Assembly (NCBI RefSeq): GCF_006345805.1
Contig: NC_043022.1
Span: 6,882,001-6,946,000 of the forward strand
Origin: Octopus sinensis
Taxonomy: Eukaryota
Length of the DNA: 64,000 nt
Direction: 5' to 3'
The notes under the pieces were generated by a model, which did no database searches, had not been told where the DNA came from, and worked only from the letters and a program-made list of their open reading frames with translations. The translations under genes were made by a program, and so were the position numbers. Positions within the stretch are counted from its first letter, which is position 1. Every line of letters begins with the position of its first letter. This document shows positions 33,681 to 38,045 of this stretch, piece after piece.

Positions 33681-33864
33681 ATAGTGCACAGAGGATATCC
33701 AGAGATTCTCAGTATAGAAGACAGTTAGTAGTGTTCCAATGATTCAACGTTTGATGTCTTTACAGGGGACCAATTCCTTGGGGTAAAGAATGGCTCCAAG
33801 AGGGATCAAGTTGAGCAGATATGCAGATAAACAAATTAGATATATTGAACATAACAGTTTGGGT

Positions 33865-35948
33865 CCTTCCTTTGGCATCCGTCCATCTCGAGAGACGATG
33901 GTGTAGCTCAGAAAAAGTGGTGGGTTTATCTGGACTTCCTGGTGTGGCTGTGCAGACCAATCATCGAGCGGCAGTCCCTACCACATCTGGTGTAAGTGAA
34001 AGGGGACGAGAGCTGTGGTTGCTGCTGCTGCTCCTTTCGCCTGGTTCTCTTTACTTTGGCAGTAGTGGTCCTCAGGTTCTCTGCTGTCATGGCACTGTGC
34101 TTGACACTGTGTCACCAGGCGCTTCTGTTGGCAGTGGCGAATTCCCATGTTTTGGGTGTTGATCTGGCATAGCTTTAGGTCTTTCTTGCAGATATCCTTG
34201 AAGCGCAGTTTGGGGCGTCCCATTGTTCTGGAGCCTTCCGCTAGCTGTCCGTACAGTAGATCTTTTGGAATCCATCCTGCATCCATTCGGCTGACATGAC
34301 CTAGCCACCGAAGACGCCTCTCACAGAGTGATGTTTACATGCTGTACATGTTGGCACGGTCCAAAACCTCTGTGTTAGTGATCCTGTCCTGCCATTTGAT
34401 ATGGAGAATGCGCAGCAGGCACCTCAGGTGGAAGCTATTGAGTTGTTTCTCATGTCGGGTGTAGGTGGTCCATGTCTCGCTTCCGTACAGCAGTATGCTC
34501 AGTATGCATGCTCGGTAAACTCTCAGTCTAGTATTCTTAGTGAGACTGGTGTTGTTCCATACCCATTTGTTAAGCTTGGCCTTTGCTGCTGTTGCCTTGC
34601 CGATTCTGCTCGTAACCTCTGTGTTGATGGACACAAGAGTTGGATATAGTGGGCCCGAGATAGGTGAAATTGTCGACCACTGCTAGGCTGTAGCCATCTA
34701 TGCAGATTGATGGGTTATGCTCTGCACCCTGCACCATGACGTCTGTCTTCTTCAGGCTGATATTTAGACCAAATTCTTTGTAGGCGTGGGACATGCAGCT
34801 CACAAGTTCTTGGAGCCCAGTTTCTGTGTGTGATGTCAGTGCTGCGTCATCTGCGAAGAGCATCTCTCGAATGAGTATCTTAGCGACTTTGGTTTTGGCT
34901 CATAGACGGGCGATGTTGAAAAGCTATCCGTCGCACCTGGTGTTGATGTAGACTCCCTCCTTGCTGGTCTTAAAAGCAAACTGTAGGAGCAGCGAGAAGA
35001 ATATTCCGAAGAGTGTTGGTGCAAGAACACAACCTTGTTTCATTCCGCTGTTGACTTCCGATATTGCGCTGTTGTAGCAGACAGTGCTGTGCATGTTGTT
35101 GTGGAATGAGGTTTTCACTTTGAGCAGGTGCGGTGGGCATCCTATCTTCTGTAGAAGTGTAAAGAGTCCATTCCTGCTGACGAGATCGAATGCCTGGGTG
35201 AGGTCAATGAAGGCTATATAGAGAGGCATCTGTTGTTCTCGGCACTTCTCTTGCAGTTGTCGTAGTGAGAATATCATGCCCACTGTGGATCATCCTGCTC
35301 TGAAACCACACTGTGACTCTGGGTAAACACGGGTTTGCCAAGGTCTGTAGGGGCGCTGGTGTGACTCGTGCGAAACTTTACCGACCACACTGAGTAGAGA
35401 GATACCCCTGTAGTTGTTGCAGTCGCTGCGATCACCTTTCTTTTTGTACAGGGTGACAATTTTAGCATCTCTCATGTCTTGCGGTATGTGACCATGTTCC
35501 CATGAGAGGCAGAGTAGATCATGCAGGGGGTGTAGCAGTGCAGGTTTCCCACATTTGAGGATTTCTGATGGGATGCCATCGTTCCCGGGAGCCTTGCCAC
35601 AGGCTAGTGAGTCGATTGCCTTGCTGAGCTCTTCCAGTGTGGGTGGAGAGGGTCTAGTTCATTCATAACCGGTAGGACTGGGATAGCGTTGAGGGCCGGC
35701 TCTGTGACGACATTCTGTGTGGCATACAGTTCAGGGTAGGGCTCAGGCCAGCGCTGCATTTGTTTCTCCTGGTCTTGGATTATTACTCCCTCGTTGGTCT
35801 GGATAGGAGCCGTCTTGGTAGGAGCTGGGTCTGTTGCCTTCTTTATGCCCTCATACATCCCACGCACATTCCCTGAGTCTGCTGCACTCTGTATGCCATT
35901 GCAGAGGTTCAACCAGTAAGTGTTGGCGCAGCGCCGGGCTGTCTGCTG
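33865..35948 (-). mobile_element. RTE-clade (BovB-like) LINE, 5'-truncated, frameshifted reverse transcriptase
   Basis: QQTARRCANTYWLNLC, KKKGDRSDCNNYRGISLLS, LRQLQEKCREQQMPLYIAFIDL, GMKQGCVLAPTLF, LFADDAAL, ILLYGSETWT, LYGQLAEGSRTMGRPKLRFKD. Shares the TSD AACAGTTTGGGT with the adjacent rRNA piece. Confidence 0.95.
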
Positions 35949-35949
35949 A

Positions 35950-36396
35950 GAGGAAAAGAAACCAACCGGGATTCCCTAAGTAATGGCGAGTAAACCGGGA
36001 GAAGCCCTATGCCAAGTCTCGTCGGCCGCACTGGTTGTTGAGAGCTGTGGTGCAAGGATCATACACGGTCGATTGTTTCGCCCGGCTAGGTTCGGAGTCC
36101 CCTCGATCGGGGCTGCCCAGAGCAGGTGCCAGGCCCATTCGGAGCTGGCGGCGATCAGTGGTGTTCATTGGCTCGAGAGTCGGGTTGCTTGGGAATGCAG
36201 CCCAAAGTGGGTGGTAAGCTCCATCCAAAGCTAAATTCGGGGGCGAGTCCGATAGCCAACAAGTACCGCGAGGGAAAGTTGAAAAGACCTTTGGAGAGAG
36301 AGTTCAAGAGACCGTGAAACCGCCCAGTGCGCTGCCCTCGACTTGGACTAGATTACCCGCCGAACTTAAGCATATTGCTAAGCGGAGAAAAAGAAC
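35950..36396 (+). pseudogene. 28S rRNA 5'-domain fragment, circularly permuted retrocopy
   Basis: Conserved LSU motifs GAGGAAAAGAAACCAAC, GAGTCGGGTTGCTTGGGAATGCAGCCCAAAG, AACAAGTACCGCGAGGGAAAGTTGAAAAG and GAGAGTTCAAGAG..CGTGAAACCG (35950 to about 36327) are followed by the true 5' end ACCCGCCGAACTTAAGCATAT..AAGCGGAG (about 36334-36396). Confidence 0.93.
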
Positions 36397-37424
36397 AGTT
36401 TGGGTATGAAACACAAAACATGTCTCTGTGTATACAAGCAAAACGATAGCAAGCAAAAAGTGGAGACTTTCAGGCGATGAATGTCTAAGTATATTCTTTA
36501 TCTGAAAGTCTTCAGTTTTTGCTTTCTCTCGTTTTACATGTATACATCATCACCATCATCATCATCATCATTTAATGTCCATTTTCCATGCTGGCATGGG
36601 TTGGACTGTTTGATAGGAGCTGACCAGCTGAAGGGCTGTTCAGGCTCCAGCTGTCTATTTTGGCATGGTTTCTTCTGCTGGATGCCCTTCCTAATGCCAA
36701 CCACTTTACAGGGTGGACTGGGGGCCTTTTATGTGTCTCCAGCACCTACAAGCCCACAAGATTAGGGATGCTCAGATGGAGAGGGTTGCAGGGGGCAACC
36801 ATGTTTTTACTTAGCTTGACGTGCGTGTGTTTGTTTCTGCATTTCTTGCCATGAATACTATTGAGACAATGTTGGTTTGTTTGTGTTCCTTACAAACGAA
36901 AAGTCCAGCTGTTGGGCTGCGAGACTTTATAAAAACCTTACTGGAAAAATATCAAATAGGAGTTGGTGTCAGCAGGGATGCTGGCTCCTAGATTACAGTC
37001 GTGAAATGTCTCGTGTAATCCATGCCAGCATAGAAAAGCAGATGTAAAAACAATGATGATGATGATGATGATATCCACACGAGGCGTTCATTCATTCATA
37101 AGATGGCTGTTCAAATGCCTGAGTTCCTTTTTCTCTTGTTCTTGATTGAGACGTGAAGTCACACACACACACACACACGTCCACTCAATGAAGGAATTGC
37201 TATACATTTGCTTGATCTGCTAGAAATAGCAGTCAACTCACACTCAAATCATATCTTACCAACTTCAACAAAAACAGACACATTGGAGACTGGTGTAGTT
37301 GTAAATACACTGCGTGAATTATAGATGAGATGGTCACAACTGGAGTGTCAGTGATCATAAAACTGCTTCCAAGCTGACTGTTGCCTAAACACCCGCTTCC
37401 TGCCTGGTCATTTATAAGAGACAT

Positions 37425-37651: not shown

Positions 37652-38045
37652 GCATGTCAGCCCGCATAGCTCAGTCGATAGAGCATCAGACTTTTAAGAA
37701 CTGGCCTGTTATGAAATCTGAGGGTCGCAGGTTCAAGTCCCTCTGTGGGCGACGATTTTTCTTTTGACTGATAGAATAAGCACTCGGCTTACAAAAGAAT
37801 AAGTCCCGGGGTCGAGTTGCTCGATTAAAGGCGGTGCTCCAGCATGGCCACAGTCAAATGACTGAAACAAATAAAAGAGTAAAAGAGTAATATATATGCA
37901 ACAGGCTTCATTTTAGTTTCTGTCTACCAAATCCCTTCACAAGGCTTTGGTCACCCAGTAGGAGACGCTTGCCCAGGGTGCCATACTATGTGATTGAACC
38001 GAGGACTATGTGGTTGGGAAACAAACGTCTTTACCATACTGCCCT
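37425..38045 (-). mobile_element. Old SINE family A copy hosting the tRNA-SINE chimera
   Basis: The family A sequence resumes at 37901 after the insertion. Confidence 0.8.
37660..37751 (+). tRNA. tRNA-Lys(UUU) with 19-nt intron (37697-37715); probably a pseudogene/retrocopy
   Basis: Acceptor GCCCGCA/TGTGGGC, D stem GCTC/GAGC, anticodon stem TCAGA/TCTGA, anticodon TTT at 37693-95, intron between positions 37 and 38, T loop TTCAAGT, downstream TTTTT. Defects: D-loop GG>GA and two T-stem mismatches. Confidence 0.85.

What the first reader, a model, noticed from the sequence alone, without database searches (positions are those of the whole stretch)
33853..36405. Single retro-insertion fusing an RTE LINE to an inverted 28S rRNA fragment, bounded by a 12-bp TSD
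Seen: AACAGTTTGGGT occurs at 33853-33864 and 36394-36405 and encloses both the minus-strand RTE (33865-35948) and the plus-strand 28S piece (35950-36393). The two are joined with no spacer and in opposite orientations. Known: LINE/cellular-RNA chimeras made by template switching are normally co-oriented, and inversions arise by twin priming on the LINE's own RNA. Inference: the second target-site nick primed reverse transcription in trans on a ribosomal RNA, using the TSD's AAC as microhomology to the rRNA's GAAAAGAAAC. That would be a two-template twin-priming event by RTE machinery.
Basis: partly seen in the sequence, partly recalled or inferred. Interest (0 to 1): 0.85.

Follow-up and report, generated by a model that had tools for sequence, protein, structure and literature searches.

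The report
LINE-captured, wrap-around 28S rRNA fragment
A truncated jumping gene and a backwards piece of ribosomal RNA sequence sit inside one target-site duplication, and the ribosomal piece has its end joined to its start, as at four other places in this genome, likely because the copying enzyme ran off the start of a ribosomal RNA fragment and jumped to that fragment's end.

Summary
The single insertion is real. The 12-mer flanks a 5'-truncated RTE-like LINE (minus strand, 33865-35951) and an inverted 28S piece. The host is an older repeat: 8 of 9 paralogues run left flank, one 12-mer, right flank, which stands in for the empty site. Both parts are equally old (2.8% vs 3.5% non-CpG divergence), with 2-nt microhomologies at both 28S ends.

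Four unlinked loci carry the same kind of junction, from nt 413-436 to the predicted mature 5' end, in two rDNA age classes. Four of five donors lie at the edge of the predicted 5.8S:28S helix. The likeliest cause is an end-to-end jump of the reverse transcriptase on a 28S(1-435) decay fragment; a covalent RNA circle is the main rival. No junction-spanning reads were examined.

The parts
33691..33852 (.). Left part of an older dispersed host repeat (pre-insertion site)
   Evidence: Aligns to paralogue L263 at 144/172 from 33691; 8 of 9 paralogues match at least its last 40-50 nt
33853..33864 (+). Target-site duplication, copy at the LINE 3' end; inferred first-strand primer
   Evidence: In LINE sense it starts with A, is 12 bp long, and has a T run about 10 nt upstream of the 5' copy, the RTE signature of PMC6007223
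33865..33873 (-). Short A/G repeat tail of the LINE after the conserved GGATGCC end
   Evidence: Other copies end GGATGCC plus variable GAAG/GAC-type tails
33865..35951 (-). 5'-truncated, frameshifted RTE-like LINE (linker, RT, C-terminus; endonuclease lost)
   Evidence: RVT_1 hits; 92.6% to the longer copy L098 over 2081 nt, which has Exo_endo_phos plus RVT_1; non-CpG divergence 52/1848
35950..35951 (.). 2-nt microhomology (GA) shared by LINE and 28S at the inversion junction
   Evidence: Intact LINE copy and rDNA compared with the window
35950..36327 (+). 28S rRNA nt 55-432
   Evidence: 93% to rDNA units; 27 differences in 378 nt, 18 of them CpG transitions
36328..36329 (+). TG at the permutation junction: untemplated bases, or nt 433-434 with one change
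   Evidence: Sequence
36330..36395 (+). 28S rRNA nt 0-65, beginning at the predicted mature 5' end with no ITS2; the last AA overlaps the TSD
   Evidence: Rfam LSU model position 1 at 36333
36394..36405 (+). Target-site duplication, copy at the 28S end; inferred second-strand primer
36406..36546 (.). Right part of the host repeat, with a 54-nt inverted repeat
   Evidence: 434 candidates, 40 scored; hairpin I1

Best explanation
An RTE-like LINE and an inverted, end-to-start permuted 28S copy lie within one 12-bp target-site duplication, likely made in one twin-priming event in which the second nick primed on a 28S 5' fragment and the reverse transcriptase likely jumped from that fragment's 5' end to its 3' end. 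Steps: (1) shown: a staggered target inside an older repeat was duplicated. (2) Inferred: the first nick primed on the LINE tail and the cDNA stopped after 2087 nt. (3) Inferred: the second nick primed at 28S nt 65 through AA pairing, and the copy ran to the mature 5' end. (4) Inferred: after adding a base or two, the enzyme jumped to the 3' end of a 28S(1-~435) decay fragment whose end had been protected by the 5.8S helix. It read on to nt 55, about 10 nt past its own priming site. (5) Inferred: the two cDNAs were joined through GA. The copy is a dead fossil; what it records is a recurrent RNA substrate and an enzyme behaviour.
For: Single event: paralogous empty sites, equal ages (Fisher p=0.48), no second locus with this LINE/28S junction among 6 matches. 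The family can twin-prime: L045 has a 24-nt inverted LINE piece inside a 13-bp TSD (1 clear of 21 copies). RNA-level junction: five unlinked loci join nt 432-434, 436, 436, 433-434 and 413 to nt 0-2. They fall into two rDNA allele classes (nt 23 and 272) and by my reading of the alignment share no non-CpG change that older rDNA copies lack. No microhomology is visible between ITS2 end and donor. The donors coincide with the end of the predicted 5.8S:28S helix (5.8S 3-8 with 28S 434-429). For a jump: junctions vary by 1-3 nt, and R2 RT needs untemplated bases to jump (PMC8857657, passages). In this genome 27 of 60 dispersed 5.8S loci have a SINE head directly behind the 5.8S end, against 0.002 expected per locus. 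SINE RNAs are expected to carry a 5' triphosphate (my recall), which argues for jumping rather than ligation. Two of five copies lie within 11 nt of one unit (post hoc simulation p=0.014).
Against: A jump from 28S nt 1 should often land on the 5.8S 3' end that pairs beside it, yet 0 of 60 5.8S loci show 5.8S fused to 28S nt 1. 5 of 7 ITS2-less copies that reach nt 1-2 are permuted (5 of 8 if L066 is counted), a high rate for an occasional jump. Self-pairing that would bring the fragment's ends together is weak (P=0.08). The other four permuted loci have no convincing TSD or adjoining LINE, so their enzyme is unidentified. Microhomologies are only 2 nt. The 1-435 fragment and the mature 5' end were not observed as RNA, and no reads across the junctions were examined.
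Confidence: 0.48

Rival explanations
1. Same twin-priming insertion, but the template was a covalently closed circle of 28S nt 1-~435, made by ligation of a decay fragment. The enzyme was primed internally and went once round plus about 10 nt.
For: Most copies that reach nt 1 without ITS2 are permuted (5 of 7); none of 60 5.8S loci is fused to 28S nt 1; priming points are internal and scattered (nt 34, 43, 65, 98, 412); two copies are about one unit long and one is 1.2 units. circRNA-derived pseudogenes are known (PMC4897178, main text).
Against: Junctions differ by several nt and one donor is at nt 413; the same genome shows frequent end-to-end joins best explained by jumping. PMC4897178 itself warns that RT passage through open-ended structured RNAs gives the same pattern. 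My searches listed no eukaryotic circle of this domain.
Confidence: 0.3
2. The 28S(1-435) fragment was first copied to a free cDNA that circularised. This DNA circle was then captured at the 5' end of the truncated LINE by repair synthesis, not by twin priming on RNA.
For: It explains the mature-end junction and the unit-length copies, and the lack of TSDs at the other four loci. LINEs can make RNA-derived DNA circles (PMC3510499, abstract).
Against: It needs two rare steps; orientation would be random, whereas the observed one is what second-nick priming on sense rRNA requires; the 75-nt overlap at the C3 locus needs rolling synthesis anyway.
Confidence: 0.12
3. The permutation arose once as a DNA rearrangement or tandem duplication and spread by copying, or the 28S piece arrived at the LINE 5' end in a separate later event.
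For: DNA-level tandem duplications of rRNA pieces exist here: the L150 5.8S units share mutations, and some L188 18S units do.
Against: Different junction bases, two rDNA age classes and no shared derived changes; all acceptors at nt 0-2 (about 1e-6 for the four loci not found by a junction pattern); equal age of LINE and 28S, and exact abutment to the TSD.
Confidence: 0.06
4. Mis-assembly joining a LINE, rDNA and flank.
For: All parts are repetitive, and no spanning reads were examined.
Against: The 28S piece differs from rDNA at 7% of sites with CpG decay, like an old genomic copy; the TSD matches the paralogous empty site; the junction type recurs at four other loci.
Confidence: 0.04

Closest known systems
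Inverted small-RNA/L1 and 28S/L1 chimeras by twin priming in trans (PMC4476161, passages; PMC13174262, abstract, passages and 15 of 18 LSU supplement rows)
   Same: Antisense cellular RNA at the 5' end of a truncated LINE within one TSD, with microhomology at the priming site; an L1HS with 362 nt of antisense 28S and a 15-bp TSD is a direct precedent.
   Different: The carrier is RTE-like, which PMC4476161 says forms only template-switch chimeras. The captured piece is permuted; the 15 human rows seen each list one collinear interval, and the main text has no 'permuted' or 'circular'.
circRNA-derived pseudogenes (PMC4897178, main text)
   Same: Genomic copies with a non-collinear end-to-start junction, at several loci of different ages.
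   Different: Those come from back-spliced mRNA exons with a fixed splice junction; this is Pol I rRNA with a variable junction and no demonstrated circle.
End-to-end template jumping by non-LTR RTs (PMC8857657, passages) and double-jump chimeras (PMC2104539, abstract)
   Same: Continuous cDNA across a 5' end onto a 3' end, with a few untemplated bases; three-segment insertions within one TSD.
   Different: Shown in vitro for R2 or inferred for different RNAs in one orientation; here the jump would return to the same rRNA domain during second-strand priming.
Circular and circularly permuted archaeal 23S rRNA (PMC7758197 and others; search listing only)
   Same: Large-subunit rRNA ends joined out of order.
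   Different: Those are whole-molecule processing products in archaea; this is a 435-nt animal fragment known only from DNA copies.
Octopus H88 and protostome rRNA breaks (PMC13321053, passages)
   Same: Defined post-transcriptional breaks in 28S.
   Different: They lie at H88 and D6; the passages seen report no break near nt 435.

Membership tests
RTE-clade LINE | AP-type endonuclease followed by RT in one ORF, no ORF1 | tested here: met
   Longer copy L098: Exo_endo_phos then RVT_1, broken by frameshifts; no ORF of 100 aa or more upstream
RTE-clade LINE | 3' end in short tandem repeats; TSD about 10-12 bp starting with A, T run about 10 nt upstream | tested here: met
   Tails; window TSD and flank against PMC6007223
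RTE-clade LINE | RT phylogeny places it in the RTE clade | not tested
   No reference RTs were held; the label rests on anatomy and on C-terminal motifs that I recall
Twin-primed in-trans LINE/RNA chimera | One TSD encloses both parts | tested here: met
Twin-primed in-trans LINE/RNA chimera | Cellular RNA antisense to a 5'-truncated LINE, its 3' truncation at the TSD | tested here: met
Twin-primed in-trans LINE/RNA chimera | Microhomology at the priming site and at the inversion junction | tested here: met
   AA and GA, 2 nt each, weak on their own
Twin-primed in-trans LINE/RNA chimera | Both parts arrive together (orthologue presence or absence) | tested here: inconclusive
   No orthologues held; equal divergence and paralogous empty sites agree with it
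circRNA-derived pseudogene | Non-collinear end-to-start junction in the genomic copy | tested here: met
   Five loci
circRNA-derived pseudogene | Junction at back-spliced exon ends | tested here: not met
   rRNA, variable junction, no splice sites
circRNA-derived pseudogene | A covalent parent circle exists as RNA | not tested
   No RNA reads examined
28S-derived SINE or composite element family | Many copies sharing ends and a common tail | tested here: not met
   The five permuted loci differ in ends and junction bases; the LINE/28S junction is single

The most novel reading that the evidence does not exclude
The 5' domain of animal 28S rRNA (nt 1-~435, the part clamped by 5.8S) is released and ligated into a covalent circular RNA in the germ line of this animal. 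LINE machinery has written it into the genome at least five times over two evolutionary periods, once by twin priming during an RTE insertion. These would be fossils of an undescribed rRNA decay or repair product.
Probability: 0.3. Interest if true: 0.8.

Novelty: new variant of a known kind. Interest (0 to 1): 0.56.

Why it matters
The inverted chimera extends twin priming in trans from L1 to an RTE-like LINE, a modest step. The recurrent permutation matters more. It predicts a specific RNA species (28S nt 1-~435, ending at the 5.8S helix) and either in vivo end-to-end jumping by a non-LTR reverse transcriptase or a covalent rRNA circle in an animal. PMC8857657 suggests that jumping may not be needed physiologically and that L1 chimeras arise by prior ligation, so five dated copies plus 27 5.8S-SINE joins in one genome make that open question testable. 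One outward-primer RT-PCR with and without RNase R separates the two readings.

Tried and rejected
Reads: 24 runs were listed, none holding half of the words (best share 0.42), and no RNA holder was listed; this is no evidence either way. No reads were laid, so assembly of the junctions and RNA-level junctions remain unchecked.

A loose junction pattern was uninformative: 442 matches against 219 in the control, 100 listed. Further permuted loci: none among 26 more loci; L063 was a chance pattern match. Five is a lower bound, since DNA searches score 40 candidates and patterns allowed 2 mismatches.

Self-pairing of the 28S ends as the cause of the junction was rejected (P=0.08, energy rank 36%). 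DNA microhomology at the junction: none seen. TSDs at the other four loci: none convincing; a 6-nt ATATGT at C9 lies in microsatellite. Clustering of 3' ends of plain 28S fragments at nt 411-445 is visible but biased by my queries, so it is not used as evidence.

The same permutation at other rRNA ends: 5.8S none of 60 (L116 and L150 are DNA duplications); 18S one ambiguous tandem of 40 (L188). L060 was not counted as a twin-primed LINE because its inverted match is AT-rich and unresolved. No similarity was found between the SINE and RTE 3' ends, so the SINE's partner LINE is unknown.

Literature searches for a precedent of the permutation listed none; subscription papers are not covered. Three LSU rows of the PMC13174262 supplement and all other papers' supplements were not seen. 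Three look-ups of earlier findings returned nothing.

Full report
What is there. The window is G000:C26:6882001-6946000 in a 2.7-Gb assembly. From its repeats and size I take it to be an octopus; that label comes from no call. AACAGTTTGGGT stands at 33853-33864 and 36394-36405. Between the copies lie a frameshifted LINE on the minus strand (RVT_1 in two frames) and an LSU rRNA match on the plus strand. A longer copy of the family, L098, is 92.6% identical over 2081 nt and carries an AP endonuclease followed by RT, with no upstream ORF of 100 aa. Copies end in GGATGCC plus short variable tails. The window's TSD is 12 bp, starts with A in LINE sense and has a T run about 10 nt upstream, as described for RTE elements (PMC6007223, abstract and passages). 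RTE LINEs are reported in octopus (PMC9115989, passages). I did not place the element on a tree.

It is one insertion. The right flank, TSD included, belongs to a dispersed repeat (434 candidates, 40 scored). Of 9 paralogues fetched, 8 run from sequence matching the window's left flank through a single 12-mer into the right flank, and the ninth begins at the 12-mer. The LINE differs from the majority of other copies at 52 of 1848 non-CpG sites (2.8%) and the 28S part from rDNA at 12 of 340 (3.5%; p=0.48). The LINE extends to 35951 and shares GA with 28S nt 55-56; the TSD shares AA with nt 64-65. The 6 matches to the LINE 5' end include no second copy of this junction. The family can twin-prime in cis: 1 of 21 short copies, L045, has a 24-nt inverted LINE piece inside a 13-bp TSD. 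Among 147 loci with dispersed rRNA pieces, the window was the only opposite-strand case; 36 were co-oriented rRNA-then-SINE. No reads across the junctions were examined.

PMC4476161 (passages) attributes inverted U5, U1, U2 and U6 chimeras with L1 to twin priming with microhomology. PMC13174262 (passages) reports mostly antisense 5S and tRNA chimeras and 18 28S/L1 chimeras, 83% sense. Its supplement lists an L1HS with 362 nt of antisense 28S and a 15-bp TSD (15 of 18 rows seen). The residual novelty is the carrier: PMC4476161 says RTE and L2 form only template-switch chimeras.

The rRNA part matches rDNA in two blocks in reversed order: 35950-36327 is 28S nt 55-432, and 36330-36395 is nt 0-65, where Rfam model position 1 falls. 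ITS2 is absent. The insert is one ~435-nt unit plus 11 nt. Four other loci on four other chromosomes show the same kind of junction: C9 (416-436 then 1-412), C3 (24-413 then 1/2-98), C18 (329-433/434 then 1-34) and C13 (255-436 then 1-43). C18 was found with a junction pattern; the others were not. For those four, acceptors at nt 0-2 have a chance of about 1e-6 and three donors within 5 nt about 0.002 under uniform draws. By my tally, 69 places with a match to this domain were examined, many of them rDNA units or duplicates. Of the 7 that reach nt 1-2 without ITS2, 5 are permuted. The window and C9 carry younger rDNA alleles at nt 23 and 272; C3 and C13 carry the older allele at both sites and C18 at nt 23, the only one it covers. 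By my reading no non-CpG change absent from older rDNA copies is shared, so these are independent events from at least two periods.

Why nt 433-436. Co-folding pairs 5.8S nt 3-8 with 28S nt 434-429, and 5.8S nt 142-158 with 28S nt 21-4. Four of five donors therefore sit at the outer edge of the helix that 5.8S makes with 28S, where a nuclease would be expected to stop. The acceptor is the mature 5' end by homology with human and yeast (my recall of those ends). There is no microhomology for DNA recombination, and self-pairing of the two ends is weak. The known octopus break is elsewhere, in H88 (PMC13321053, passages).

Jump or circle. For a jump: junctions vary, the window has two extra or altered bases, R2 RT jumps end to end through untemplated bases (PMC8857657, passages), and this genome joins SINE 5' ends to 5.8S 3' ends very often (27 of 60 loci, several with TSDs of 9-17 bp around the pair). 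For a circle: the high permuted fraction, no 5.8S-28S fusion in 60 loci although the 5.8S 3' end lies beside nt 1, scattered internal priming points, and copies of 1.0 to 1.2 units. PMC4897178 (main text) describes circRNA pseudogenes and notes the same ambiguity. I put the jump at 0.48, the RNA circle at 0.30, a captured cDNA circle at 0.12 (PMC3510499, abstract), DNA rearrangement or sequential arrival at 0.06 and mis-assembly at 0.04. The other four loci lack clear TSDs, so RTE involvement is shown only here.

Novelty. Six searches listed no report of permuted rRNA retrocopies or of an animal circle of this domain; the library omits most subscription papers. The chimera is a new variant of a known kind. 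The recurrent wrap-around at the mature 28S end is the part a specialist would find surprising and can test at once.

Noticed in passing
L108-L167 (60 dispersed 5.8S loci, e.g. L144 = G000:C14:66364300-66366100, L121, L165): 27 of 60 have a SINE head directly behind the 5.8S end on the same strand (31 with any SINE part), several inside TSDs of 9-17 bp. Linkers start T-rich in 9 of 13 copies ending at nt 145-158 and in 1 of 14 ending internally, where they are mostly A-rich (post hoc p=0.001, linkers delimited by hand). This may record uridylated and adenylated 5.8S decay intermediates. Possibly an undescribed chimera class (one search).
   Followed up: partly
L188 (G000:C21:7196700-7199000): Four head-to-tail copies of 18S nt 1-~128 joined at the predicted mature 5' end; some changes are shared between copies, so concatemer or later DNA duplication is undecided.
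   Followed up: partly
L150 (G000:C25:15621900-15624200) and L111: Short tandem repeats of the 5.8S 5' end upstream of the copy; L150 also has a 143-bp DNA duplication and ends in an A-rich linker plus SINE.
   Followed up: partly
window 37660-37751 +: tRNA-like gene with about 20 extra nt after the anticodon arm (Rfam 48 bits). It looks like tRNA-Lys(UUU) with an intron-like insert by my reading; ARAGORN calls it tRNA-Stop. An intron in an animal tRNA-Lys would be unusual (recall).
   Followed up: no
window 33691-33864 and 36394-36546: The host repeat has hundreds of candidates and an internal 54-nt inverted repeat; MITE-like, unclassified.
   Followed up: partly
L045 (G000:C2:26175035-26178284): Classic cis twin-primed copy of the same LINE family: 24-nt inversion within a 13-bp TSD.
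   Followed up: yes
L048 (G000:C29:14881865-14885124): A copy of this LINE whose internal ~66-nt segment has expanded into a minisatellite of about 20 units.
   Followed up: no
L196 (G000:C4:121781100-121783100): 18S nt 5-83 joined tail to tail with 28S nt 1920-1982.
   Followed up: no
L070, L071, L072, L079 (unplaced contigs C6303, C8597, C9496, C2502): rDNA only 69-87% like the host's in the 28S 5' domain, with a different ITS2 end: probably from another eukaryote in the assembly.
   Followed up: no
L173, L180, L182, L075, L087: 18S 5' fragments (nt 1-64 to 1-69) and two 28S pieces followed by co-oriented SINE sequence; L075 is more likely a SINE inserted into a 28S copy.
   Followed up: partly
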